Below, piece by piece: positions 4,140-64,000 of a stretch of DNA of 64,000 bases. Numbering within the stretch: the first letter of the stretch is position 1; each line of letters opens with the position of its first letter. Under the pieces are notes generated by a model. The model saw nothing but the letters and a program-made list of their open reading frames with translations, made no database searches and was not told the DNA's origin. Origin of the DNA: a phage. A program made the translations under genes and the position numbers. The stretch lies in the sequence record PZ347775.1; one strand, 5' to 3'.

Positions 4140-4370
4140 TTATTTCTCAACCAATGATTGAATATAATCATGCAAGTCTTTAGATGCTTTACCCCACTTA
4201 TTTTGGTATTCATTTTTAAGATTAGCCCGAGATTGAGCTAATAAAACATCATTAGTTGGAGGTAAAGATTCTAACCGTTGAATCTGGCGTCCATAAATCA
4301 TTGCAGCCATCTCGGATTCATAAATCAATCCTTTGAGATGTTCAAATTGATGCCATGAAATCATTTGCAT
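4140..4370 (-). CDS. hypothetical protein (76 aa)
   Basis: ORF track. Confidence 0.5.
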   Translation of the reverse strand: MQMISWHQFEHLKGLIYESEMAAMIYGRQIQRLESLPPTNDVLLAQSRANLKNEYQNKWGKASKDLHDYIQSLVEK

Positions 4371-4660
4371 TTATCCTCTTTTAACTCTTGACGATAATAA
4401 CATATCATAGTTTTCTGATCATGTACATATCGTTTTACATCATTAAGCCAAATGCGAAATTCCTGGGAATCTTCAAATGGCATACCGACCCAAGCTTTAC
4501 CATCAATAACTTTAACTTGCCAAGATAGTTTAGCTTCATCATATGACTTTATTTGTACAGGCCAATTAGGATGAACTGTTTCTTTCTTTACTTCTAGAGG
4601 CTTTGTCGAACAACCAACTAGAAGACCAATAGATAATATTACTGCTGATAGTTTAATCAT
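4361..4660 (-). CDS. predicted lipoprotein (99 aa)
   Basis: N-terminal signal peptide ending in lipobox LLVGC. Confidence 0.55.
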   Translation of the reverse strand: MIKLSAVILSIGLLVGCSTKPLEVKKETVHPNWPVQIKSYDEAKLSWQVKVIDGKAWVGMPFEDSQEFRIWLNDVKRYVHDQKTMICYYRQELKEDKCK

Positions 4661-5010
4661 TTAGAAAGGTCCTGGATGTCTTCTGCGAACTTGTTGAAGG
4701 AGTTGTTGATTTGTTTTTCAACCAATCCTGGCTTATGAGCCACCACATCCGCCTTCTTTGCGTCTTTGCGCAGTTTTTCATTTTCACGCTCAATAGCAGC
4801 AATTGCCTCACGATTTTTATTATTCATCGCATCAATATAATTATACTGAATTCGCAAATTATCTAATGCTAAAGCGTTTTCATTGGCCGTTTTTGTAATT
4901 TCTACAACAGACGTTTCTAATCTTTCAATTTTACTTTTTAAAATTAAAGAAGTTCCGCCCAATGCAATTACAATTAATAGCAAGCCTGCTGTCGTATTAC
5001 TTAATTGCAT
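4657..5010 (-). CDS. membrane-anchored coiled-coil protein (117 aa)
   Basis: N-terminal hydrophobic helix followed by charged helical region. Confidence 0.55.
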   Translation of the reverse strand: MQLSNTTAGLLLIVIALGGTSLILKSKIERLETSVVEITKTANENALALDNLRIQYNYIDAMNNKNREAIAAIERENEKLRKDAKKADVVAHKPGLVEKQINNSFNKFAEDIQDLSK

Positions 5011-23658: not shown

Positions 23659-26600
23659 ATGGCTACTTTAAAACAAATACAATTTAAAAGAAGCAAAACC
23701 GCAGGTGCTCGTCCTGCTGCTTCAGTATTAGCCGAAGGTGAATTGGCTATAAACTTAAAAGATAGAACAATTTTTACTAAAGACGATTTAGGAAATATCA
23801 TTGATCTGGGTTTTGCTAAAGGCGGGCAAGTTGATGGAAATGTGACTATCAATGGTCTTTTGAAATTAAACGGCGATTATGTACAAACTGGTGGAATGAC
23901 CGTAAATGGACCTATTGGTTCTACTGAAGGCATAACTGCAAAAGTTTTCAGATCTACACAAGGTTCATTTTATACAAGAGCCTCAAATGATACTTCCAAT
24001 GCCCATCTTTGGTTTGAAAATGCCGATGGCATTGAACGAGGCGTTATATATGCTCGTCCTCAAACTACAACTGACGGTGAAATACGTCTTAGAGTTAGAC
24101 AAGGAACCGGAAGCACTATTAATAGCGAATTCTATTTCCGTTCTATAAACGGCGGTGAATTTCAAGCTAACCGTATTTTAGCATCAGATTCGTTAGTAAC
24201 TAAACGCATTGCGGTTGATACTGTTATTCACGATGCCAAAGCCTTTGGGCAATATGATTCTCAATCTTTGGTTAACTATGTTTATCCTGGAACCGGTGAA
24301 ACAAACGGTATAAACTATCTTCGTAAAGTTCGCGCTAAAGCTGCCGGAACCATGTGGCATGAAATCTGTACAGCTCAGACTGGCCAAGCAGATGAAATGT
24401 CTTGGTGGACGGGTAATACTCCATCATCTAAACAATATGGTATTCGTAACGACGGCCGAATGGCTGGGCGTAATAGCCTTGCATTAGGTACATTCACTGC
24501 AGATTTCCCGTCTAGTGATTATGGTAACGTCGGTGTAATGGGCGATAAGTATCTTGTTCTCGGTGACACTGTAACTGGCTTGTCATACAAAAAAACCGGT
24601 GTATTTGATCTAGTTGGCGGTGGATATTCTGTTGCTTCTATTACTCCTGACAGTTTCCGCAGTACACGTAAAGCATTATTTGGACGCTCAGAAGATCAAG
24701 GCACAACATGGATTATGCCTGGAACCAACGTTGCCTTTTTATCGGTTCAAACACAAGCTGATGGAAACACTGCTGGAGACGGCCAGACACATATTGGCTA
24801 TAACTCAGGCGGTAAAATGAACCACTATTTCCGTGGTAAAGGCAAAACTAATATTAATACTCAAGAAGGCATGGAAGTTAACCCGGGTATTCTTAAACTA
24901 GTAACCGGTGCTAACAGTATTAGCTTTAACGCTGCAACAGGTAATATTGATTCTACATTAGCTTTTCGTCTTAATAAAGGTATAATTATTGATGGACCTG
25001 ATAATCAGGGATTCCAATTTAATGCTCCGACGGCTGTAGATGGTACTAGAAGCATATACTGGAATAGTGGCACACGCTCAGGTCAAAACAAAAGCCCTGT
25101 TACAGTTAAAGTGTGGGGTAATTCATTTAACGCATCTGGTGATCGTAGTCGTGAAACCGTTTTTGAAGTAGCTGATGGGCAAGGTTATTATTTTTACGCT
25201 CAACGTACTAATCCTGCATCAGGTCAAACGGTAGGTCCGGTTAACTTTAAATTTAACGGAACTGTCGAAACAGGTCATATCATAGGCCTTGGAAATATAA
25301 GTGCCTCCGGTACAGGTTCTTTCGGTGGCAATGTTACTATGTCTAACGGTTTGTTTGTCCAAGGTGGTTCTTCTATTACCGGCCAAGTAAAAATTGGTGG
25401 AACTGCTAATGCATTAAGAATTTGGAATTCCGAATATGGCGCTATTTTCCGTCGTTCAGAAGCCAACTTCTATATTATTCCAACCAATCAAAATGAAGGC
25501 GAAAGCGGAGACATTCACAGCTCTTTGAGACCTGTGAGAATAGGATTAAACGATGGCATGGTTGGGTTAGGAAGAGATTCTTTTATAGTAGATCAAAATA
25601 ATGCTTTAACTACTATAAATAGTAACTCTCGCATTAATGCCAACTTTAGAATGCAATTAGGACAAAATGCTTATATAGATATTGAGGCTTCTGATGGAGT
25701 TCGCCCAACGGGTTGTGGTTCCTTTGCATCTCAGAACGATGTAAACGTAAGAGCTCCAATTTATATGAATATAGAGCGTACTGCTACTTCTGAATACATT
25801 CCTATTGTTAAACAACGGTATGTAAAGGGTGATAGTACTTATTCTATTGGTACCTTAATTGCCCAAGGAGACTTCCGTGTCCATTATCACCAAGGTACTA
25901 GTACTACCGGAACCGATATAAGTTGGGAATTCCGTCGTACCGGTGACTTCCGCACACCTGGTAAAATTATTGCCGGTGCTGCTACTCTTGGTACTGATGG
26001 TAATATTACTGGTGGTTCTGGTAATTTTGCTAACTTAAACAGTACGATTGAATCACTTAAAACTGATATTGTTTCAAGTTATCCTATTGGAGCTCCGATT
26101 CCTTGGCCTACTGATACACCTCCTGAAGGTTATGCCATAATGGAAGGTCAAACATTTGATGTTGGCTTGTATCCTAAGTTAGCTGCGGTGTATCCTTCCG
26201 GCTCTCTGCCTGATATGCGCGGGCAAACTATCAAGGGTAAACCAAGTGGTCGTGATGTTTTGAGCGCAGAAGAAGATGGTGTTAAGGCTCATAGCCATAG
26301 TGCATCGGCTTCAAGTACTGACTTAGGTACTAAAACCACATCAAGTTTTGATTACGGTAGCAAAACGACTTCAAGCTTTGATTATGGTACTAAGACCAGT
26401 AATAATACTGGTGCTCATACGCATAGTTTGAGCGGTTCCACAAACACCGCCGGTGCGCACAGCCACACAAGCGCTCTTTATGCGGGCGATAGAGACTCTC
26501 CTGGTGGTAGTTCTGCAAGAGGATCCGCCGGTGGTGGTAATACGCTTGGAACTTCTTCTTCTGGGGCACATTCGCACTCTATATCTGGTACTGCTGCAAG

Positions 26601-30854: not shown

Positions 30855-31004
30855 TTACTGCATGACTGTGATAACTGTCATGATAACACGTTGAATGCCG
30901 AACGCAAGAAGACCTCCTGCTACGGCTGGAACAACACCTAAACCCGCCAGTAAAATGCTACCAGATACTAATGCCGCGCTTGTAATACCTATAAATGGAC
31001 TCAT
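30855..31004 (-). CDS. small hydrophobic protein (49 aa)
   Basis: Hand-read ORF MSPFIGITSAALVSGSILLAGLGVVPAVAGG...; start overlaps gene 52 stop; below ORF-track size cutoff. Confidence 0.4.
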   Translation of the reverse strand: MSPFIGITSAALVSGSILLAGLGVVPAVAGGLLAFGIQRVIMTVITVMQ

Positions 31005-32329
31005 TTGATTTCCTCTAAATCTTTGGTGTATTCTGTAACTACATCAGTAGTTTTCCAATATTCGTTTTCTTCTTTCTTAGCTTTAGCTTCTTCAGCAAGT
31101 TTCTTTGCTTCATCAGAAGTCATATGAAAAATATTCATTCCGACTAGTTTATCAACATAAGAAGAATACATATCAATTTTAGAAAGTTCTTCGGTCAGTT
31201 CTTTGCGAGTTTTACCTTGCACAACAATTTCACCTGAAATTACTTTCTTAATGAAATGTGCCTTGGCAAAGGCTAAACGAAATGCTGATTCAGTTTCTTT
31301 GATTTTGTTATCAATTCGCTTTTGGACATAAGTTTTACGAACTTCAACAAAGTCTTTAATTAAATCAACTACGTTATCGTAAACTTGTAGCTTTCCTTTC
31401 TCATTAATAACAGTAATATTCTGGGAACGACGCTCAATCAACCCGAAGTCTTTCATGATTTTTGCATGGCGTTCTTCTTCGTTATCGCTCAAAGAATATT
31501 CTTTACGGAATTTAACTTTAAAGCCAAAGCCATGCTCACCACAAGCATCATCCCATGTAATGAAGCCTTTATCTTCAAGCGGGTCTAAGATTTTACTCAC
31601 ATAAGTTTCACGATCATACTTATACGGAATCTCAGTGATATTCATTTGAGTTCGTGAAGTAAACTTGTACGTTCCACGAATTTCATATTGACCGTCAATT
31701 TCAACGACTTCACCACGAAATTCTGGGAATTCTACCTTCGGTTTAGTTACTTTCTTTCCTTGAAGAGCTTGTAATACAGCTTTCTTAACAGAAGAAACGC
31801 TATGAGGAAGAATGTAAGTTGCATAACCAGTTGCAATACCGGAAACACCATTAAGAAGAACAGTAGGAATAATAGGCAAATAGAAAGCAGGAGGAATGTG
31901 TTCTTTATCTTGATGTACCGGAGCATATTCAGTATCTTTATATACACTATAGAAATTTTTACTTACACGAGCAAAAATATAACGACTTGCTGCTGCTTTT
32001 TGGACAGTACGAGAACCAAAGTTTCCTTGACCATCTAACAAAGGAAAGTTATTATTCCAAGTATTAGCCATCAAAGCCCCCGCGTCTTGCGCAGAGTTTT
32101 CACCATGATGATATCCAAGGTCAGCTACACCACCTGCAATAGAAGCGAGTTTGTGAAACTTATCTTTATTTCCTCGCGCCAAATCAAGAGCTCGAGCAAT
32201 AACAAATCGTTGGACTGGCTTAAATCCATCAATCATATTTGGAATAGCACGATTTTCAACCGTGTACATAGCATAAGCCAATGCTTCATTATCAATGATA
32301 CTTTTTAAATCGCGATTATTCAGTTGCAT
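31001..32329 (-). CDS. 52: DNA topoisomerase II medium subunit gp52 (GyrA-like cleavage domain)
   Basis: 442 aa; GyrA/ParC-like N-terminal cleavage core. Confidence 0.95.
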   Translation of the reverse strand: MQLNNRDLKSIIDNEALAYAMYTVENRAIPNMIDGFKPVQRFVIARALDLARGNKDKFHKLASIAGGVADLGYHHGENSAQDAGALMANTWNNNFPLLDGQGNFGSRTVQKAAASRYIFARVSKNFYSVYKDTEYAPVHQDKEHIPPAFYLPIIPTVLLNGVSGIATGYATYILPHSVSSVKKAVLQALQGKKVTKPKVEFPEFRGEVVEIDGQYEIRGTYKFTSRTQMNITEIPYKYDRETYVSKILDPLEDKGFITWDDACGEHGFGFKVKFRKEYSLSDNEEERHAKIMKDFGLIERRSQNITVINEKGKLQVYDNVVDLIKDFVEVRKTYVQKRIDNKIKETESAFRLAFAKAHFIKKVISGEIVVQGKTRKELTEELSKIDMYSSYVDKLVGMNIFHMTSDEAKKLAEEAKAKKEENEYWKTTDVVTEYTKDLEEIK

Positions 32330-32333
32330 AAAT

Positions 32334-32474
32334 TTACCATACTAGTGAATGTAGTGCCATAATAACATCAGAAATGAAAAGCACGACTTGAATTAATCCG
32401 AACATTACTCCATAATATAGTGCTACCAATAAAGCAGCAAGGGCTACTGAGTAGCCCAAGATTTTCTTAATCAT
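32334..32474 (-). CDS. small membrane protein (46 aa)
   Basis: Hand-read ORF MIKKILGYSVALAALLVALYYGV...; stop 5 nt from gene 52 start. Confidence 0.4.
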   Translation of the reverse strand: MIKKILGYSVALAALLVALYYGVMFGLIQVVLFISDVIMALHSLVW

Positions 32475-32625
32475 TAGTAGATAACAACACAAATGTTAAA
32501 TATGCACACATACCCTGAGCTAAAGCTTGCGAAAACACACTGCTGGCATCAATACAGATAGTTAAAACGCATGCTACTATCCAACAAATAAATGAAATAA
32601 CTCCTAATAATTTTGCAATATTCAT
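32467..32625 (-). CDS. ac: probable Ac (acridine sensitivity membrane protein)
   Basis: Hand-read 52-aa hydrophobic ORF MNIAKLLGVISFICWIVACVL...; between stp and 52 as in T4. Confidence 0.5.
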   Translation of the reverse strand: MNIAKLLGVISFICWIVACVLTICIDASSVFSQALAQGMCAYLTFVLLSTND

Positions 32626-32632
32626 ATTTTCC

Positions 32633-32713
32633 TCACTGGCGTCCGAAGACGCCTTTAGTTTTAAGATTGTTACGATAGAACTGCATCACGTGTTCGTTAT
32701 GGAAATTACTCAT
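32633..32713 (-). CDS. stp: Stp peptide (activator of host PrrC anticodon nuclease)
   Basis: Hand-read 26-aa [29 protein letters not shown]; start overlaps ndd stop; matches T4 Stp as I recall it. Confidence 0.7.
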
Positions 32714-33168
32714 TAATATGCCTGCAAAACAAATTTAAAGTTATCAGCCAACATACGGTTCATTTCTTCAAGTGTTTGATACTCAGAATGATGATTACGA
32801 GTAAACGCCAAAGCTAACTGACCCTTTCCAAATCCCGTCGTCAGAGGTTTCATCTTAGAAGCAGGCAAATAAAATACTGTATATGGAACATTGTTATTTG
32901 CAATAGTACGCGCAAGCTGAGATCGACGCTGGCGAATATGACTTAGAACTGCACTGAATCCTTGCTTAGAACGCTGATTACCTACATAAAATCGTGCAGA
33001 TACACACGGATTATCAAATGGACCGCCAAATTTGCTCACTAAAAAGTAAAATCCAGGTTTAGATAAAATATCTTTATGTGGAACTCCCAAAAACCATTCA
33101 CCGTTCTTGATTGTACCAATAACGGTAGCGCCTGCATTGTTCAGATCAGTAACAGTCATATATTTCAT
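32713..33168 (-). CDS. ndd: nucleoid disruption protein Ndd
   Basis: 151 aa from [11 protein letters not shown] (track ORF trimmed); AGAGGA SD. Confidence 0.8.
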
Positions 33169-33228
33169 ATTAATTTCCTCTAAATTATTTTCTACTCCAA
33201 GGCCGCATGAATACACACGGCCATTAAA

Positions 33229-33444
33229 TTAATCATCGCAGTCGACGCTTAATTCCCAGAACTCTTCTACAGTATAAGTTTCAGTATCATTTTCAATACA
33301 GAAACGTTCATTGCTGTTATTTGCTAAAGTAGCGTTAACTGTCATTTTCTCGCTAGTGCTTTTAAGAGGCGAAATACGAATTAACTGATCACCATTATCT
33401 AAGCAAAAAATTTCACCAACTTTTACATCTTTAAAGATTTTCAT
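33229..33444 (-). CDS. hypothetical protein (71 aa)
   Basis: ORF track. Confidence 0.5.
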   Translation of the reverse strand: MKIFKDVKVGEIFCLDNGDQLIRISPLKSTSEKMTVNATLANNSNERFCIENDTETYTVEEFWELSVDCDD

Positions 33445-33559
33445 AATTCACCTCAAGGAGTATAAAATCCAAATGCAGTTGTTGACCATCCCATCCAATA
33501 TGGGAAATTTGCACCAATGTAAAACATAAGAATATAAAACCAAATGCTTAGTAAATTCA

Positions 33560-33757
33560 TTATTTTACACCATTCCAAATTGTTTCAACCACAGATTTTA
33601 AGCCATTTTGGTGAATATCCATTCCGACAACTGCCATCAAATAGATTCCAACTACAACTGAACCTAAGGCAAAAATCAGCATGAAAATGAATAAAGCTGG
33701 AAAAATATTATCGAAAAACCATTCAATAAATGTAAAAGCACTGCGTTTACGCTTCAT
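33560..33757 (-). CDS. small membrane protein (about 65 aa)
   Basis: Track ORF trimmed to MKRKRSAF with GAGGA SD; two hydrophobic segments. Confidence 0.45.
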   Translation of the reverse strand: MKRKRSAFTFIEWFFDNIFPALFIFMLIFALGSVVVGIYLMAVVGMDIHQNGLKSVVETIWNGVK

Positions 33758-40827: not shown

Positions 40828-41088
40828 TTATTTAAAACGGATAGTCGAATCCTTGAAGAATAGACCAGAACATACGGTTCCTTCTACTTTCTGCCCTGTA
40901 GGTCCAATAGCACGAAATCCAGTATGCTGGAAATCATTTTCAGAGCAACCGAACCAATTATATCCAGTGATTTCAATATTAGTAAAACCACTTGAAGACA
41001 AAACTTTGGTTGCATTATCAGCATCAGTACATCCTACTAAAGATACTGCTAATACTAATGCCGCGATAGAACGATTAACATATTTCAT
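40828..41088 (-). CDS. predicted lipoprotein (about 86 aa)
   Basis: Track ORF trimmed to first ATG MKYVNRSIAALVLAVSLVGCTD (signal peptide + lipobox). Confidence 0.5.
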   Translation of the reverse strand: MKYVNRSIAALVLAVSLVGCTDADNATKVLSSSGFTNIEITGYNWFGCSENDFQHTGFRAIGPTGQKVEGTVCSGLFFKDSTIRFK

Positions 41089-41092
41089 AATT

Positions 41093-41464
41093 TCACTCAA
41101 ATTTAATGGCTTGAAGGAGACTAATAATTCTTAAGCGACTTCTTTCATCTTTAACTGTAAAAGAAAGAGGGTCACCAGATTTCATAGTGATGGTGCATCC
41201 AAAATCAAAATCTTCTGTAACTTCTTCGAAGAAGTCAAATTCTTCATCATAAATTAGAACATTACTCTGAAAACTGTGAAGAATTTTTCCATCATTTCCA
41301 GATGCTGTACTAATCATTGTAACATTATGGCCTTTCATATCTTCAACGATAAATTCGCTTGTAGATATTACGGCATTAATAGAACCATTCCTATAAATAG
41401 AAGAAAGCAGATATTTCTTTTCTTCACCTTCGCGAACACGATATTTCTTACCGATTTTAAACAT
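41093..41464 (-). CDS. hypothetical protein (about 123 aa)
   Basis: ORF track trimmed to first ATG (MFKIGKKYRV). Confidence 0.5.
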   Translation of the reverse strand: MFKIGKKYRVREGEEKKYLLSSIYRNGSINAVISTSEFIVEDMKGHNVTMISTASGNDGKILHSFQSNVLIYDEEFDFFEEVTEDFDFGCTITMKSGDPLSFTVKDERSRLRIISLLQAIKFE

Positions 41465-54228: not shown

Positions 54229-54855
54229 TTAACCTCTATTCATAAAAGCATTAAAAATTTGGTCATCAATAGAAACATTCACTTTAGACTGTTTTTCTGA
54301 TGGTAATTCATATCCACATATTACAATTTTGTGATCAATATCAAAATACACAGAAGCAATATGATTAATGATGTTTTCAGTAAAGTCTAAATCAACATCA
54401 ATATCTTTTTGACCACAGCCCAAAGGATAAATAATGCGAGTAATTCGATTATCTTTAACAAAGATTCCACCGACATACTCTGTGCTGCGTTTAAAGTCTA
54501 CACGCCGACGAAATGAAAAATATTCAGGCTCTTTATGAGCTCGGCTCATAGGACACAACGAGTAACTAGAATAAGAAATGTCAAATCCTACGCCTTCAAT
54601 ATGAGCCAAATTATCATGATTAAACCAATTATAATCGTACGCCAAGTCCATTAGATTATAATATGTAAAAGGCACCGGATTAACGTCATTAGTCACAAGC
54701 ATGTAATTAGCAACTGCTATAATTTCATTGTTTTTAACGAATACAAACCGTGATTGATGCGAATGACCTGGACCCGCGTTTTCACGATTAATGATATAAC
54801 ACTGGGCACCTTTATATTTGTATGTATCTTTGCACTTGTGCATTTGGTAAAGCAT
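54229..54855 (-). CDS. hypothetical protein (208 aa)
   Basis: ORF track; 61.x region. Confidence 0.55.
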   Translation of the reverse strand: MLYQMHKCKDTYKYKGAQCYIINRENAGPGHSHQSRFVFVKNNEIIAVANYMLVTNDVNPVPFTYYNLMDLAYDYNWFNHDNLAHIEGVGFDISYSSYSLCPMSRAHKEPEYFSFRRRVDFKRSTEYVGGIFVKDNRITRIIYPLGCGQKDIDVDLDFTENIINHIASVYFDIDHKIVICGYELPSEKQSKVNVSIDDQIFNAFMNRG

Positions 54856-55148
54856 TATTCACCTACCACTTCAGCGACGATATTTTTATTATTAAAGTTT
54901 TTATCGCAATATAGAACATAATTATACTGCATTACACCACCAGACTTAAGCTGTTTTTGCACTTCAGCTTTCATTTCAGGACGATCACGCTCAACGATAT
55001 TCATAATATCTGCTTCAATTTGAGTTTCAACTTCAGTCTGATCTGCAGTCATAGACCACTCACACAAATCTTTATCATATCCTGCCATAGCAGGCTGAGC
55101 AGCGCAAGAAGATAAAGCAAAAATTGCAGCAAAGATAAATTTTTTCAT
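54855..55148 (-). CDS. sp: probable Spackle (periplasmic superinfection-exclusion protein)
   Basis: 97 aa with cleavable signal peptide (MKKFIFAAIFALSSCAAQPAMA); size and locus as T4 Sp. Confidence 0.6.
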   Translation of the reverse strand: MKKFIFAAIFALSSCAAQPAMAGYDKDLCEWSMTADQTEVETQIEADIMNIVERDRPEMKAEVQKQLKSGGVMQYNYVLYCDKNFNNKNIVAEVVGE

Positions 55149-55251
55149 GATAATCTCCTCAGTAGTTTATGTTTATAGTATCTCAATTTTCAACAAAAGT
55201 AAACACTAGTAGAAGCAAACAGACAAATTACAATAATTGGTGATTTCAGTT

Positions 55252-59346: not shown

Positions 59347-60195
59347 TTAATCAACCGCTATTGGATGAATAGCATTAAACTTATGAAACGCTTCTGATTT
59401 TTCTTTGCGTGAAACACACATGCGAAGAACCTTTAATGGCTCGTCTTCTTCACCTAATGATTTTCGTTTTTCAATATTAGAAGTTTTCCAACGAGCTTGC
59501 TCTGGAAACTCTCTATTGATTTGCTCAAGAGCTCTATTATGTTTTGAATTACTACGAATTGAACTACATCCACCGGGGGCTTGTGCTTTTCCAGATACAA
59601 CTAGATATTTGAACAAGGCCAAATGCGGATAACCTTGATTAATTAAATTGAGAAATGCATACATATCTTCGCATAAATCAATTTTTCCATACCCAATTTG
59701 TTCTGTTGTAAGTTTTCCTAAATCATACCAGGTATTCGTGAATCCGTATGAATTTTCACGATAATTACCCCAAGATGAAGTAATTTTAAAAATAGGTAGA
59801 CGAGCATGACCATGATAATACCCGCAATCCATGGCATCTTCAACGTATTGAATCAATTCATAGAACTGTTCACGAGTTAACTGATTAATTTTATCTACGC
59901 AGCGACGATCATCTTTCTTTCGCATTGAACTCATACGAATAGTAGTATCATCATCAATCATCCAAATTCGTTGACCTGCATACATATCAGTAATTGCTTT
60001 ACGAGTTCCAGCAATTCCATTAACATCATCAGGAATAGTTATAATTTTAGCCCTAGACCCGTAAGCGTCATAATAAGCTTTTTCTTCATGTTCACGTACT
60101 ACAATATGAGGTTCATAATCAGTCGGAAACATATCAAGGGCAGAAACTGCCCCTACGCGTTGATAGCTTGGAATTACGAATTGAATCATTTCCAC
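59347..60195 (-). CDS. glycosyltransferase (GT-A fold, DxD)
   Basis: 282 aa; N-terminal FVIPSYQR and DxD motif WMIDDD; sits where T4 carries beta-gt but looks unrelated to it. Confidence 0.55.
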   Translation of the reverse strand: MEMIQFVIPSYQRVGAVSALDMFPTDYEPHIVVREHEEKAYYDAYGSRAKIITIPDDVNGIAGTRKAITDMYAGQRIWMIDDDTTIRMSSMRKKDDRRCVDKINQLTREQFYELIQYVEDAMDCGYYHGHARLPIFKITSSWGNYRENSYGFTNTWYDLGKLTTEQIGYGKIDLCEDMYAFLNLINQGYPHLALFKYLVVSGKAQAPGGCSSIRSNSKHNRALEQINREFPEQARWKTSNIEKRKSLGEEDEPLKVLRMCVSRKEKSEAFHKFNAIHPIAVD

Positions 60196-60926
60196 TCACC
60201 GTTATAATCTTTTTTCGCAATATGGGTTTCGCCAGTTTTCCACCAATGGTCAACCAAATAAAAATGACGGGAATACACATGAAGGCTCCCGACATTCCAT
60301 ATAATGGAACCTGCTTTATACTGACGAGTTGAATCACCTGCATTCAAATCAGATACTAATTTATCTAGTACGTATTTTTGCCATGCATAATCATTACGGA
60401 ATCCGAAGACCACGTCATTTGAACGCATGTTAACCACTGCATTAATTTTCTTATCACGAATCAGGTACTGTACTGTATTAGTACACATGAAATCTGACAT
60501 GCCATCTTTATTGTAGTCAAATTGCATGGATGGACGAGTATAAATCATGATACCACGTCGAGAATCAGGATTTTGACCAAGTTCAGCTAAACACATATCA
60601 TATTGGGCATAGTTATCTTCTGACCAGATGGCCCAACCATAATTCGAGTTAATTTCGCCTTTAGAAGATGCTACCTGCTGCCAAATCTTTGGTGTTTCAC
60701 CTGGAATATCTTTAACAAACAGACTTTGAGACTTATACCATTCAAGTTCACGCTGAATGTATTCATCATTAAGAGCGCCAAAAATAAAAGGTTCATCTGC
60801 TACAAATGATGCACCAATAATTTCAATAGTTTTAACCCCGGTTTTATCAATTACGAAATCTTTTTCCTTTAATGCAAGACCCAAATCAAGACGGATTTCT
60901 TCAACTGTCATATAATCGTTAATCAT
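60186..60926 (-). CDS. 42: dCMP hydroxymethylase
   Basis: 246 aa as T4 gp42; thymidylate-synthase-like fold. Confidence 0.9.
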   Translation of the reverse strand: MINDYMTVEEIRLDLGLALKEKDFVIDKTGVKTIEIIGASFVADEPFIFGALNDEYIQRELEWYKSQSLFVKDIPGETPKIWQQVASSKGEINSNYGWAIWSEDNYAQYDMCLAELGQNPDSRRGIMIYTRPSMQFDYNKDGMSDFMCTNTVQYLIRDKKINAVVNMRSNDVVFGFRNDYAWQKYVLDKLVSDLNAGDSTRQYKAGSIIWNVGSLHVYSRHFYLVDHWWKTGETHIAKKDYNGEWK

Positions 60927-60933
60927 TTAAACC

Positions 60934-61083
60934 TCAATTGATGCATTCATATTTAATTTGTAACAGTAATAAACTCCAACCTATAATAAGTGGCGGAATC
61001 ATAAGAGGAACTGTTACGCTATAGTATATACTTATTATAATCATTAAGATTAAAAGCAATACTGCTAAAATTTTGCTTTTCAT
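60934..61083 (-). CDS. small membrane protein (49 aa)
   Basis: Hand-read ORF MKSKILAVLLLILMIIISIYYSV...; ATGA overlap with imm stop. Confidence 0.35.
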   Translation of the reverse strand: MKSKILAVLLLILMIIISIYYSVTVPLMIPPLIIGWSLLLLQIKYECIN

Positions 61084-61331
61084 TCCTTCTCTCTGATGAT
61101 AATTACTTGATTTGGCTGTGTTGACTTTTTAGTTTCACCGGCAATTGACCAAATAAATGTAATAAACCAACCAATGATTGACCAGTTAAACAGTAAAGAT
61201 GTGAAAAAGATTCCTACTGTCGATTTTGACCCACGCATCAAGGCGATGAACCAAGGAAGCATGTATATAATAATAGCCAACACGCCTGAAACTAAAACCA
61301 TAAAAATTGAACCTGCTACTAAAGTTTCCAT
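61080..61331 (-). CDS. imm: immunity (superinfection exclusion) membrane protein Imm
   Basis: 83 aa, two TM helices; between 42 and 43 as T4 imm. Confidence 0.7.
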   Translation of the reverse strand: METLVAGSIFMVLVSGVLAIIIYMLPWFIALMRGSKSTVGIFFTSLLFNWSIIGWFITFIWSIAGETKKSTQPNQVIIIREKE

Positions 61332-61338
61332 GTTTTCC

Positions 61339-61719
61339 TTACTTAGTCAAATTTTTTACACATGAATTATAAGAATTTACTACATACTCCATCGGAGCAT
61401 TTTTACCGGTACGCCATTGGTAATTATTAGCCCAATTTGCCCAAAGTTCAGCACAGTAGTTTTCAATTTTTTCTTCACGCGTAATCACATCTGAATTACG
61501 ATATGCTTGTGCAGATTCATCTGGACGAATAGCTTCGTCAAAATTCGCCTGCATTTGTTCTACTGTCTGTTTTGGAGCCTCTTTATAACACTTGACGTTA
61601 GGATTATAAAATTTGCTTGAACAGTTTACAATTTTTCCTACATCAGACTGATTTACTACTGGTCCTTGAGCTACACATCCAGTAAGACCCAATGCAATAA
61701 CCAAAATAGCGATTTTCAT
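61339..61719 (-). CDS. predicted lipoprotein (126 aa)
   Basis: Signal peptide + lipobox ALGLTGC. Confidence 0.55.
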   Translation of the reverse strand: MKIAILVIALGLTGCVAQGPVVNQSDVGKIVNCSSKFYNPNVKCYKEAPKQTVEQMQANFDEAIRPDESAQAYRNSDVITREEKIENYCAELWANWANNYQWRTGKNAPMEYVVNSYNSCVKNLTK

Positions 61720-61729
61720 AATAATTTCC

Positions 61730-61966
61730 TCAAATACAAGTAGTAATTACTCCAGTAGTGCTTACACAGGTATTACCTAATTGAACACCCAGCGTTCCAT
61801 TAGTATTCATATGAAGATTATCATCAATTTTTGTTGATACTTTACCATTCATGTGAATAATAGTATTAGATTCAATCACATTCTGAGTGTCATTTTCAAT
61901 ATCAATAAATGGAACAGTTGCTAATGCAACTAAACACACTGCTAAACAACCATAAACAATTTTCAT
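61730..61966 (-). CDS. secreted/membrane protein (about 78 aa)
   Basis: Track ORF trimmed to MKIVYGCLAVCLVALATVPF (signal-like N-terminus); upstream track residues are promoter cassette. Confidence 0.45.
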   Translation of the reverse strand: MKIVYGCLAVCLVALATVPFIDIENDTQNVIESNTIIHMNGKVSTKIDDNLHMNTNGTLGVQLGNTCVSTTGVITTCI

Positions 61967-62000
61967 TTTATTCTCCAAATCCGTATCAGTTGATAGTTGT

Positions 62001-62030
62001 ATAGTATCATGGAAGAACGGGAATGTAAAC
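62001..62030 (-). promoter_or_regulatory. sigma70 early promoter (GTTTAC -35, TACTAT -10), cassette copy C
   Basis: Reverse complement GTTTAC-18nt-TACTAT; leader nearly identical to copy B at 34595-34637. Confidence 0.55.
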
Positions 62031-62112
62031 AGTTTTGTGAAAAAATTTTTAATGAATTTACAGGACCTAGAATCATCTATTTTTCCTAAGTATAGATTTA
62101 TATTACTTGTAT

Positions 62113-62135
62113 GAAAAAGGGACCCGGAGGTCCCT
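62113..62135 (-). terminator. rho-independent terminator after gene 43
   Basis: mRNA agggacc-UCCG-ggucccu hairpin followed by UUUUU. Confidence 0.65.
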
Positions 62136-62147
62136 AGATTTATTCTA

Positions 62148-64000
62148 TCAGCCAAACAGGAAGTCTAACGAAGCTTTTTCCTCATAGTCCATACCTGCCG
62201 ATTCACACATACCCGCAAGCGGTTTAACAAACGATTTTTGGAACAAAGTTGAGTAGTCAATCCAAGACAGCACGTCAGAACGAATTTCTTTTGGAAGTTC
62301 CGTACCCGATGGCCAAGCAATGCACTTGTCACCAAATGGATTTCCTTCACGTAATGGAAGAACCATTACCTTATTTCCATCCAAAATTGGAGCTACACCT
62401 AAACCGCTAACAGCTCGACGATAAGTTAGCACACCACGAATATGGAACGGACATTTAAATCCTGGCCAACCTTTATCATCATATTTCGCTATATCGTTCG
62501 CAGTTTTTACTTCAGCAATAACTTTATAGTCAAGTTGACGATATTCTTTCTCAAAGTTCTTGTAGTATTCTTGGACAGACTCTTCGCCTTCCTGAAGAAT
62601 ACGACGAATACTTTCTTCGAGAGCTTCTTGTACTGCTTTTGGTGTTGAGCTCTGCTGAGTTTCCATACCCATGATTTTTAGATGCGGTTCGGCAAATCGC
62701 TTATCTTCCATATCATAAACGTTCAGAGCATAACGTTTTTTCGCTTTCCAAAATCCACCAACGCCCTTTGAACCAAGCGGAGGGCAAGAAATAGCTTCAC
62801 GGTCCATATGCATCAGATGCTCGCGGTTATTCATATAATCACATAACTCACGATATGCAACATCAATCATAGGTTCCATCTTTTTCTTACCAAACTGATT
62901 CATGAATTCAACTAAATCATTTTGTTCTTTAAAGCGATCAAGACCTACTTTTTCAATAACTTTATCTACACAAACATATACCGAATCAGTATCACCTGCT
63001 GCGATGAAATCTTCACCATTAGTTCCACATACTTTATTCAGATATTCATTAATTTTGCGAGCAATCCACTGAATACCAACTTGTCCAAAAATCGTGATAG
63101 CAGTAGCATTTCGCAAATCATAGTAGCGGAAATGAATATTACCAAGAGCACCATAAAGACTGTTGATAAGAATTTTACGGTTCAGCTGATTTGTGTTAGC
63201 AAGTGTAGCTGCTTTTTCACATTCTTCAATCAAACTATTGAGAACAGATTCAGTATAATTCGATAGTTCATTTAAGAAATCATCACTGAACTTAACATAT
63301 CGTTCAACTTCAGGTTTAGTTGAACAGGACCCTGCACCTTTCATAATAATCTTTTTAATAGCTTCGGCATTCATTTCTTCGGCGAACATTTTCTTTTTCC
63401 AATCTTTACGCTGGAAAAATACTTTAGCGATTTCCTTTGGAATGATACCTTCTTGATGCTTATCATACATCCATCCATTCGGAGAACATGAATACTCATC
63501 ACTTGGCTTAGGAGCTGTTCCTGCGATATATTCATGAATTGGATGAACTTTAAACTGTCCACGAATAGTCTCAGGACTAATGTTAACCTGACGAATAATG
63601 CTAGGATACAGAGACGTCAAGTCAAAACTCATAATGTATCGACGAGCAATTGGTTTAGGTTCAAACACAAATGCACCCGGAAAACTCTGTTTAACGTGTG
63701 AACCTTGTTGAGGAATAACCTTATGTTCACTTTTCAACGAGTTAAAAATAATAGCATCCCAAGTTTTAATAGGACTCATTACACCAGAAAAAGGCATTTT
63801 AGCATAATAAGACATACTTAAAACTAGATCGATAAACCCACGAATTTTATCAATTGCTTGAACTGATTCTACGTCAATAATGTTATAACTAATGTATCGT
63901 TGATGATTAGTCTCACGAAGTTTATTAATAGGACCATCGTACGGCAATTTACCTTTTTTGGTTTCATGTTGAGCAACTGATTCCAAAGAGAATGATGGCA
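62148..64000 (-). CDS. 43: DNA polymerase gp43, C-terminal part (5' end beyond window)
   Basis: Family B polymerase motifs DLTSLYPSII (motif A) and AGDTDSVYV (motif C); frame continues to window edge. Confidence 0.95.
   Translation of the reverse strand, partial: PSFSLESVAQHETKKGKLPYDGPINKLRETNHQRYISYNIIDVESVQAIDKIRGFIDLVLSMSYYAKMPFSGVMSPIKTWDAIIFNSLKSEHKVIPQQGSHVKQSFPGAFVFEPKPIARRYIMSFDLTSLYPSIIRQVNISPETIRGQFKVHPIHEYIAGTAPKPSDEYSCSPNGWMYDKHQEGIIPKEIAKVFFQRKDWKKKMFAEEMNAEAIKKIIMKGAGSCSTKPEVERYVKFSDDFLNELSNYTESVLNSLIEECEKAATLANTNQLNRKILINSLYGALGNIHFRYYDLRNATAITIFGQVGIQWIARKINEYLNKVCGTNGEDFIAAGDTDSVYVCVDKVIEKVGLDRFKEQNDLVEFMNQFGKKKMEPMIDVAYRELCDYMNNREHLMHMDREAISCPPLGSKGVGGFWKAKKRYALNVYDMEDKRFAEPHLKIMGMETQQSSTPKAVQEALEESIRRILQEGEESVQEYYKNFEKEYRQLDYKVIAEVKTANDIAKYDDKGWPGFKCPFHIRGVLTYRRAVSGLGVAPILDGNKVMVLPLREGNPFGDKCIAWPSGTELPKEIRSDVLSWIDYSTLFQKSFVKPLAGMCESAGMDYEEKASLDFLFG

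What the first reader, a model, noticed from the sequence alone, without database searches (positions are those of the whole stretch)
60934..61966. Cluster of envelope-targeted small proteins between gene 43 and gene 42
Downstream of an early promoter (about 62001) lie a 78-aa protein with signal-like N-terminus, a 126-aa lipoprotein (lipobox LTGC), Imm (83 aa, 2 TM) and a 49-aa single-TM peptide. This is a compact module of exported or membrane proteins around the known exclusion gene imm, and a candidate extended superinfection-exclusion or envelope-modification system.
Basis: inference. Interest (0 to 1): 0.45.

Follow-up and report, generated by a model that had tools for sequence, protein, structure and literature searches.

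The report
T4-type imm gene block, envelope proteins
This is the already-annotated early gene block around the superinfection-immunity gene imm of a T4-like phage; only Imm has a proven job, but its lipoprotein neighbour Imm.1 stays next to imm across many related phage genera, so it is a good untested candidate for a second exclusion factor.

Summary
On the minus strand, between gene 43 and gene 42 of a Tequatrovirus (98.9% identical to vB_EcoM_SA21RB), lie four small genes. They follow the gene-43 terminator and a T4-type early promoter. The genes are ORF78, imm.1 (126 aa, lipobox LTGC, Pfam DUF5481), imm (83 aa, PF14373) and 42.1 (49 aa).

Three are named genes in T4 or its RB relatives. 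ORF78 is an annotated hypothetical in about 326 phage records and is absent from T4, apparently through a microhomology deletion.

Only Imm has a demonstrated function: it binds the tape-measure protein and works alone.

New here:
- Every imm-adjacent lipoprotein I examined in the seven T4-like genera that have one belongs to one family (phrog_1754).
- It was adjacent to imm in 22 of 22 T4-like metagenomic contigs, although gene order varies.
- In Mosigvirus the imm.1–imm pair sits at a different locus, next to spackle.
- Imm.1 is under strong purifying selection (pN/pS 0.03). In T4 it is an early protein.

No fold or family match gives it a mechanism.

Gene 42.1 stays at the gene-43 locus when imm moves. 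ORF78 is dispensable. Each of imm and the lipoprotein can occur without the other nearby.

An "extended exclusion system" is therefore plausible for Imm.1 only, and it is untested.

The parts
62118..62135 (-). Intrinsic-terminator-like hairpin (AGGGACCTCCGGGTCCCT followed by TTTTT) just after the gene 43 stop codon
   Evidence: The same element is annotated as a rho-independent terminator in vB_EcoM_SA21RB. It is conserved in T4, RB32 and AR1.
62001..62030 (-). T4-type early promoter (GTTTAC, 18 nt, TACTAT) that drives the block
   Evidence: The pattern occurs 19 times in the window, all on the minus strand, against 2.75 expected. It is conserved in T4, RB32 and AR1.
61730..61966 (-). ORF78: a 78-aa accessory protein (the same gene as AR1_049 and Shfl2p051; phrog_4189). 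It has an N-terminal signal peptide or membrane anchor. All four Cys (7, 11, 67, 77) are conserved, and C67/C77 lie in the predicted periplasmic part. It is absent from T4, T2 and RB32.
   Evidence: The RBS is GGAG, 6 nt before the ATG. pN/pS is 0.41. It is found in 326 phage records. It is a precise 247-nt indel flanked by the repeat ATGAAAAT.
61339..61719 (-). imm.1: a 126-aa predicted lipoprotein (lipobox LTGC, Cys15, Val at +2, so outer-membrane sorting by the Lol rule). Pfam DUF5481, phrog_1754.
   Evidence: At least 95% identical in 502 phage records. pN/pS is 0.03. In T4 it is early at both RNA and protein level.
61080..61331 (-). imm: the 83-aa inner-membrane superinfection immunity protein
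   Evidence: Pfam PF14373, 58.2 bits. phrog_1039. 97-100% identical to T4-group Imm. Published function: binds the tape-measure protein gp29.
60934..61083 (-). 42.1: a 49-aa very hydrophobic peptide. Its ATG overlaps the imm stop codon (ATGA), which suggests translational coupling.
   Evidence: phrog_3610; named 42.1 in RB32. It is conserved in Mosig-, Dhaka-, Gapriver- and Winklervirus. pN/pS is 0.36.
61034..61058 (-). MotA-type middle-promoter motif (TGCTT, N14, TATAAT) for gene 42, lying inside the 42.1 coding sequence
   Evidence: 8 matches in the window against 0.48 expected. Annotated as a T4 middle promoter in SA21RB.
60186..60926 (-). Gene 42 (dCMP hydroxymethylase), the next gene in the same transcription direction. 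No terminator lies between it and 42.1.

Best explanation
This is the promoter-proximal part of an early transcription unit of a T4-like phage. It makes four small envelope proteins within the first minutes of infection.

Shown or published:
- Imm sits in the inner membrane and stops the DNA of later-arriving T-even phages by binding their tape-measure protein.

Inferred:
- Imm.1 is exported, lipid-modified at Cys15 and, lacking Asp at +2, sent by Lol to the inner face of the outer membrane.
- There it exposes a flexible tether and a Cys-stapled helical hairpin to the periplasm.
- Its family has stayed beside imm through reordering and relocation in several genera, and in Mosigvirus it joins imm and spackle in one early cluster. 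I therefore take it to be a separate, periplasm-facing layer of the same protection against secondary infection, or against damage from it.
- It would act on something conserved, such as a virion tip component or a host envelope component, rather than on a specific receptor.
- It would act independently of Imm, not as an obligatory subunit.
- 42.1 is a tiny hydrophobic inner-membrane peptide made by termination-reinitiation from whichever gene precedes it.
- ORF78 is a dispensable, faster-evolving secreted or anchored periplasmic protein that T4 lost by deletion.
For: Identity of the block:
-.

Imm:
- Family membership.
- Published mechanism and sufficiency of Imm alone.

Lipoprotein features and their conservation:
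-.
- 19 of 20 further family representatives have a lipobox, and none has Asp at +2.

One family:
- All seven lipoproteins from seven genera (six of them next to imm) hit phrog_1754, with E between 1e-15 and 1e-51.

Linkage:
- 22 of 22 T4-like IMG/VR contigs have the lipoprotein adjacent to imm.
- 135 Klebsiella phage records match Imm and 135 match the Klebsiella-type lipoprotein.
- Four different gene orders occur.
- In Mosigvirus the order is dmd, early promoter, imm.1 homologue, imm, sp.

Specificity:
- None of 58 non-T4-like imm loci has a family member, and only 3 of 58 have any lipobox ORF within 400 nt.

Constraint and expression:
- pN/pS is 0.03.
- In T4, imm.1 is early at both RNA and protein level.

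Against a receptor target:
- The protein is at least 95% identical in 502 Tequatrovirus records. These include a T4 record (99.2%), and T2 carries the imm.1-imm-42.1 stretch at 94.7% DNA identity. By textbook knowledge these phages use different receptors.

Independence of the two genes:
-.
Against: - There is no functional datum for Imm.1, 42.1 or ORF78 anywhere in the library searched.
- Gene order in T4-like genomes is generally conservative, so adjacency may be inherited rather than selected.
- Structure prediction gave only a generic helical hairpin. The window protein reached pLDDT 50 and the Bp7-type homologue 69, with the C-terminal part above 90.
- There were no significant fold or sequence matches.
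- The lipoprotein and imm each occur without the other nearby in some phages.
- Lipidation and outer-membrane sorting are rule-based inferences.
Confidence: 0.45

Rival explanations
1. Neighbours by descent only. Imm.1, 42.1 and ORF78 are envelope proteins with jobs unrelated to exclusion, such as outer-membrane stabilisation, lysis timing or lysis inhibition, or inhibition of a host periplasmic enzyme. They sit by imm only because this variable slot between core genes collects small early genes.
For: - Imm works alone.
- CHI14 keeps the lipoprotein and 42.1 with no imm within 50 kb.
- Rgz1 has imm without the lipoprotein in the 3.2-kb stretch fetched.
- 42.1 separates from imm in Mosigvirus.
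- No fold or family hint of function was found.
- Other clusters of small hydrophobic ORFs exist in the window.
Against: - The imm.1-imm pair sits at different loci in Mosigvirus and Tequatrovirus, so it relocated as a pair, and in Mosigvirus it lies beside sp, the other exclusion gene.
- Adjacency survives an order swap in Dhaka- and Gaprivervirus.
- 22 of 22 T4-like contigs keep the two adjacent.
Confidence: 0.35
2. Obligate multi-subunit machine. The four proteins, or at least Imm.1, Imm and 42.1, assemble into one trans-envelope exclusion complex. This is the strong form of the first reader's idea.
For: - They are co-transcribed from one early promoter.
- The imm stop overlaps the 42.1 start (ATGA), and the same overlap is seen in Bp7 and VR25.
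- The predicted locations are complementary: outer membrane, periplasm and inner membrane.
Against: - Imm alone binds the tape-measure protein and excludes T4.
- ORF78 is absent from T4.
- 42.1 is unlinked from imm in Mosigvirus and absent beside imm in S16 and the Klebsiella phages.
- The lipoprotein occurs without a nearby imm in CHI14.
Confidence: 0.08
3. Receptor masking, as with T5 Llp or the Cor proteins. Imm.1 is an outer-membrane lipoprotein that blocks the phage's own receptor to stop adsorption of secondary phage and loss of progeny on cell debris.
For: - It is an early-expressed, small, predicted outer-membrane lipoprotein, like Llp.
- Weak hits to the Cor PHROG exist, restricted to the signal peptide.
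Against: - Imm.1 is at least 95% identical across 502 Tequatrovirus records. These include a T4 record (99.2%), and T2 carries the imm.1-imm-42.1 stretch at 94.7% DNA identity. These phages use different receptors (textbook knowledge), so a receptor-specific blocker should co-vary with the adhesin.
- There is no similarity to Llp or Cor beyond residues 1-18.
Confidence: 0.07

Closest known systems
T4/RB-phage genes imm.1, imm and 42.1 (T4p046, T4p045; RB32ORF043c-045c)
   Same: These are the same genes, in the same order, with the same early promoter and gene-43 terminator. The Imm.1 protein is 99% identical to that of T4 and AR1. Between the window and T4 the DNA is 95.8% identical for imm.1, 96.4% for imm and 92.0% for 42.1.
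   Different: - The window carries the extra ORF78 in front of imm.1, as in AR1, Shfl2 and SA21RB. T4, T2 and RB32 lack it.
- 42.1 is left unannotated in the T4 reference, which has a 153-nt gap between gene 42 and imm.
T4 Spackle (gp61.3), the periplasmic inhibitor of the gp5 lysozyme
   Same: It is an early, exported, small protein of T-even phages that acts in the periplasm against secondary infection. In Mosigvirus its gene directly follows imm.1 and imm. Morganella phage Rgz1 has an Sp-like gene directly after imm.
   Different: There is no sequence relationship to Imm.1. Sp is soluble and is not described as a lipoprotein. In this window sp lies 6 kb away, at 54855-55148.
Lipoprotein exclusion factors Llp (T5) and Cor (phi80, T1-like phages)
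   Same: These are small phage lipoproteins made in the infected or lysogenic cell that protect against further infection at the envelope.
   Different: They block one specific receptor (FhuA). Imm.1 does not vary among phages that use different receptors, and it shares only signal-peptide similarity with the Cor PHROG.
Ltp of Streptococcus phage TP-J34 (from my own knowledge: a lipoprotein reported to block DNA injection by targeting the tape-measure protein)
   Same: It is a membrane-tethered, largely helical lipoprotein that acts after adsorption. This is the closest functional analogy if Imm.1 targets a tail-tip or tape-measure component, as Imm does.
   Different: The host is Gram-positive and the fold family is different. 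I found no detectable similarity. The analogy comes from memory and was not tested here.
HK97 gp15 and P22 SieA, inner-membrane exclusion proteins
   Same: These work like Imm: inner-membrane proteins that stop genome entry. gp15 is said to act through the tape-measure protein (cited).
   Different: They are not related in sequence to any of the four proteins here, and they are prophage-expressed.

Membership tests
Pfam PF14373 Imm_superinfect (T4 Imm family) | Profile match above the gathering score | tested here: met
   58.2 bits against a cut-off of 27.9, residues 22-63. phrog_1039, E 2e-32.
Pfam PF17578 DUF5481 / phrog_1754 (Imm.1 family) | Profile match over the full length | tested here: met
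   DUF5481 at 239 bits (cut-off 27) and phrog_1754 at E 5e-44. Six lipoproteins from six other genera (five of them next to imm) also hit phrog_1754.
Bacterial lipoprotein (Lgt/LspA substrate) | A positively charged n-region, a hydrophobic h-region and a lipobox [LVI][ASTVI][GAS]C with Cys at about residues 15-35 | tested here: met
   The sequence is MKIAILVIALGLTGC with Cys15. The lipobox is invariant in alignments A2 and A3. It is present in 19 of 20 further representatives.
Bacterial lipoprotein (Lgt/LspA substrate) | Actual diacylglyceryl modification and signal peptidase II cleavage | not testable with these tools
   This needs globomycin and palmitate labelling.
Outer-membrane (Lol-sorted) lipoprotein of Enterobacteria | No Asp at position +2 after the lipidated Cys | tested here: met
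   The +2 residue is Val in the window. In 19 other members it is V, A, Q or H, never D. This is a rule-based inference only.
Llp / Cor receptor-blocking lipoproteins | Sequence or profile similarity in the mature part | tested here: not met
   Only residues 1-18 (the signal peptide) of homologues match phrog_1119 Cor, at E about 0.01-0.02. The window protein has no hit.
Superinfection-exclusion factor (functional class), for Imm.1, 42.1 and ORF78 | Reduced plating or DNA entry of secondary phage when the protein is expressed | not testable with these tools
   No published test was found. There is only gene-neighbourhood evidence for Imm.1.
Sec signal peptide (ORF78) | n, h and c regions with small residues at -3 and -1 | tested here: inconclusive
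   The sequence is MK, then IVYGCLAVCLVALA, then ALA|T. Variants read ALAA or ALVA. An uncleaved N-in anchor cannot be excluded. No SignalP was available.
gp5-type triple-stranded beta-helix repeat (ORF78) | An eight-residue repeat of the VxGxxxxx kind | tested here: inconclusive
   - Weak match to a baseplate spike C-terminus: PDB 9f4a, E 0.37.
- blastp against SA21RB gp5: E 0.012 for a single comparison.
- The period-8 self-similarity is not significant (z 0.88).
T4 early promoter | GTTTAC, then 18 nt, then TAnnnT, oriented with the genes | tested here: met
   Found at 62030..62001. The motif is enriched 19 against 2.75 expected, and all copies are on the coding strand.

The most novel reading that the evidence does not exclude
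Imm.1 would be a third, so far unrecognised exclusion factor of T-even phages. It would be an outer-membrane-tethered periplasmic protein that intercepts a conserved tail-tip component. Together with Spackle in the periplasm and Imm in the inner membrane it would form a three-layer barrier.

A bolder addition: ORF78 would be a secreted mimic of the gp5 needle beta-helix.
Probability: 0.3. Interest if true: 0.6.

Novelty: new member of a known kind. Interest (0 to 1): 0.35.

Why it matters
Superinfection exclusion by T-even phages has been explained by two genes, imm and sp, since the 1970s-1990s. The mechanism of Imm has only just been described.

If the lipoprotein that accompanies imm across the seven imm-carrying T4-like genera examined here contributes to exclusion, the classical picture is incomplete. 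A simple plasmid or deletion experiment in T4 would show this.

It would also give a function to DUF5481 and phrog_1754. I found that family in roughly 900 sequenced phage genomes and in only 28 clusters among 1.84 billion representative proteins.

If the experiment is negative, the block remains an ordinary set of small early envelope genes.

Tried and rejected
- Structure. AlphaFold2 of the window Imm.1 gave pLDDT 50. The Bp7-type homologue gave pLDDT 69, with a confident C-terminal helical hairpin. Foldseek against BFVD and PDB returned only the family itself or generic helical hairpins. No functional inference was possible.
- Solved structures by sequence. Nothing was significant: YecR at E 0.84, covering the signal peptide only.
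- PADLOC and NCBIfam. Only spurious low-score hits, so I rejected them.
- Rfam on 60000-62400. No RNA family matched.
- Locus search with the lipoprotein alignment. It was too divergent to use, so I used the Imm alignment instead.
- ORF78 as a beta-helix mimic. The period-8 test was not significant. I keep it only as a lead.
- The longer annotations of ORF78 (115 aa in SA21RB; a 141-aa TTG ORF here). I rejected these because the extension lies upstream of the early promoter and has no ribosome-binding site.
- Literature. There were no papers on DUF5481. The only mention of Imm.1 assumes a role in exclusion from its name and wrongly counts it as absent from the RB69 group. Miller 2003 and Cornett 1974 are not held in the library.
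- CHI14. I did not scan the rest of the genome for imm beyond the first 50 kb.

Full report
**What is there**

The window is a Tequatrovirus (T4-like) genome segment. The stretch 60700-62300 is 98.9% identical to Escherichia phage vB_EcoM_SA21RB and at least 90% identical to about 520 records.

On the minus strand the order is as follows:
- the end of gene 43 (DNA polymerase, stop at 62148)
- a terminator-like hairpin at 62135..62118
- a T4-type early promoter, GTTTAC-N18-TACTAT, at 62030..62001
- ORF78 (61966..61730)
- imm.1 (61719..61339)
- imm (61331..61080)
- 42.1 (61083..60934)
- gene 42 (60926..60186)
- a beta-glucosyl-HMC-alpha-glucosyltransferase gene

The early-promoter pattern occurs 19 times in the window, all on the coding strand, against 2.75 expected. 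A MotA-type middle-promoter motif for gene 42 lies inside 42.1, at 61058..61034. That pattern occurs 8 times against 0.48 expected. No terminator separates 42.1 from gene 42, so the block is the front part of a longer early unit.

Yes. All four ORFs have ribosome-binding sites or a coupled start.
- ORF78 has an N-terminal hydrophobic stretch with a possible ALA|T cleavage site.
- Imm.1 has a canonical lipobox (LTGC, Cys15).
- Imm matches PF14373.
- 42.1 is hydrophobic over about 37 residues with a Pro-rich centre.

Four hydrophobic-segment genes in a row occur in about 1% of shuffles of the window's 106 greedily called genes.

Substitution patterns among 11 Tequatrovirus sequences show that all four are coding:

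| Gene | pN/pS |
|---|---|
| imm.1 | 0.03 |
| imm | 0.07 |
| 42.1 | 0.36 |
| ORF78 | 0.41 |
| gene 43, C-terminal end | 0.01 |
| gene 42 | 0.07 |

**What is already known**

- imm.1 and imm are named genes of T4. 42.1 is named in RB32 and RB14. ORF78 is an annotated hypothetical (AR1_049, Shfl2p051).
- In the T4 reference, 42.1 falls in an unannotated 153-nt gap between gene 42 and imm.
- A 2026 preprint shows that Imm alone, from a plasmid, excludes T4, and that it binds the tape-measure protein gp29.
- In T4 omics data, imm.1 is classed early at both RNA and protein level. imm is classed early at RNA level and middle at protein level.
- I found no experimental work on Imm.1, 42.1 or ORF78.

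**ORF78 is accessory**

An alignment with T4, RB32 and AR1 shows a precise 247-nt indel. T4 and RB32 go straight from the ORF78 ribosome-binding site into imm.1. The two junctions share ATGAAAAT, the first eight bases of both genes. This looks like a microhomology deletion in the T4 lineage.

ORF78 is found in 326 phage records, against 502 that carry T4-type imm.1. It also varies much more: most copies are 78-90% identical to the window protein, while Imm.1 is at least 95% identical everywhere. Its four cysteines are conserved.

A weak resemblance to the gp5 C-terminal beta-helix did not survive a periodicity test.

**The new point: Imm.1 is a conserved partner of imm**

Next to imm I found a lipobox protein in seven groups:
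- Tequatrovirus
- Mosigvirus
- Gaprivervirus
- Dhakavirus
- Gelderlandvirus
- Jiaodavirus
- the contigs L029-L031 (about 40% Imm identity)

Evidence that these form one family:
- All seven lipoproteins tested (the window's and six from other genera, five of them next to imm) hit phrog_1754 over their full length, with E between 1e-15 and 1e-51.
- Pfam DUF5481 covers only the T4 and Mosigvirus types.
- The lipobox Cys and two further Cys (89 and 120 in the window protein) are invariant.

Survey of 80 metagenomic loci that encode an Imm relative:
- 22 of 22 T4-like contigs have the family member directly beside imm.
- None of the 58 other loci has a family member.
- Only 3 of those 58 have any lipobox ORF within 400 nt of imm.

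In GenBank phages, 135 Klebsiella phage records match Imm and 135 match the Klebsiella-type lipoprotein.

The gene order differs between groups:

| Group | Order |
|---|---|
| Tequatrovirus | lipoprotein, imm, 42.1 |
| Dhaka- and Gaprivervirus | imm, 42.1, lipoprotein |
| S16 and Klebsiella phages | lipoprotein, imm |
| Mosigvirus | lipoprotein, imm, sp |

In Mosigvirus the pair has left the gene 43-42 slot. It lies about 10 kb away between dmd and spackle, behind an annotated early promoter. The 42.1 homologue stays at the gene-43 locus.

The family is narrow. An exhaustive profile search of 1.84 billion representative proteins found only 28 clusters. Of 20 further representatives, 19 have a lipobox, and none has Asp at +2.

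**Limits**

- Adjacency can be inherited rather than selected.
- The two genes are separable. Serratia phage CHI14 has the lipoprotein and 42.1 but no imm in the 50 kb that covers both candidate loci.
- Morganella phage Rgz1 has imm followed by an Sp-like gene and no lipoprotein in the 3.2-kb stretch fetched around imm.
- Imm does not need Imm.1.
- Structure prediction gives a disordered N-terminal half and a helical hairpin. No informative fold or sequence match was found.

**Most likely mechanism**

I take Imm.1 to be an early, Lol-sorted outer-membrane lipoprotein that faces the periplasm. It would add an independent layer to protection against secondary infection, alongside Sp in the periplasm and Imm in the inner membrane.

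Its near-identity across 502 Tequatrovirus records (the T4 record is 99.2% identical, and T2 carries the same stretch at 94.7% DNA identity), whose members use different receptors (textbook knowledge), argues for a conserved target and against Llp-like receptor masking.

Gene 42.1 is a coupled hydrophobic peptide of unknown role. The ATGA overlap with whatever gene precedes it is kept in Tequatro-, Dhaka-, Gapriver-, Mosig- and Winklervirus. ORF78 is a dispensable periplasmic accessory protein.

I put about 0.45 on the exclusion-related reading of Imm.1. I put 0.35 on unrelated envelope roles. The obligate-complex and receptor-masking models each get under 0.1.

**Verdict**

The genes are already annotated, and the only proven function is that of Imm. 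Interest is moderate to low as a discovery. The hypothesis is cheap to test in T4.

Noticed in passing
window 54855-55148 (-), promoter motif 55175-55204 (-): The spackle gene sp (phrog_1586, E 6e-47) lies about 6 kb downstream, with its own T4-type early promoter motif directly upstream. Its N-terminus (ALSSC) also matches a loose lipobox pattern, although Sp is described as a soluble periplasmic protein.
   Followed up: partly
window 40828-41100 (-): Another predicted lipoprotein of unknown function (90 aa, TTG start as called, lipobox LVGC, phrog_902).
   Followed up: partly
window 4361-5010 (-): A spanin pair. The lipobox ORF at 4361-4660 matches phrog_812, a Rz-like spanin. The overlapping 117-aa ORF at 4657-5010 has an N-terminal transmembrane segment.
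   Followed up: partly
window 59347-60195 (-): The gene after gene 42 is annotated in the closest relatives as beta-glucosyl-HMC-alpha-glucosyltransferase, the T2/T6 type, rather than the T4 beta-glucosyltransferase. This phage therefore probably modifies its DNA in the T2/T6 manner.
   Followed up: no
window 30855-33757 (-): A second group of very small hydrophobic ORFs (49, 46, 52 and 65 aa; one is phrog_2501, unknown function). It shows that clusters of tiny membrane peptides recur in this genome.
   Followed up: no
L003 1837-1986 (T4 strain 147); T4 reference gap 26220-26372: The 42.1 ORF is conserved in T4 but is not annotated in the T4 strain 147 record. It also falls in an unannotated gap in the T4 reference gene table used by the omics paper.
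   Followed up: yes
L013 1698-1940 (Morganella phage Rgz1): An Sp-like periplasmic protein (E 6e-39 to a two-sequence Sp profile that was built using this Rgz1 sequence itself, so the score is circular) directly follows imm with overlapping stop and start codons. This would be a second case, besides Mosigvirus, of imm and sp being adjacent.
   Followed up: partly
L001 1725-2072 (SA21RB_049): The ORF78 homologue in the closest GenBank relative is annotated with a start 111 nt too far upstream (115 aa). That start lies before the early promoter and is probably an over-extension.
   Followed up: partly
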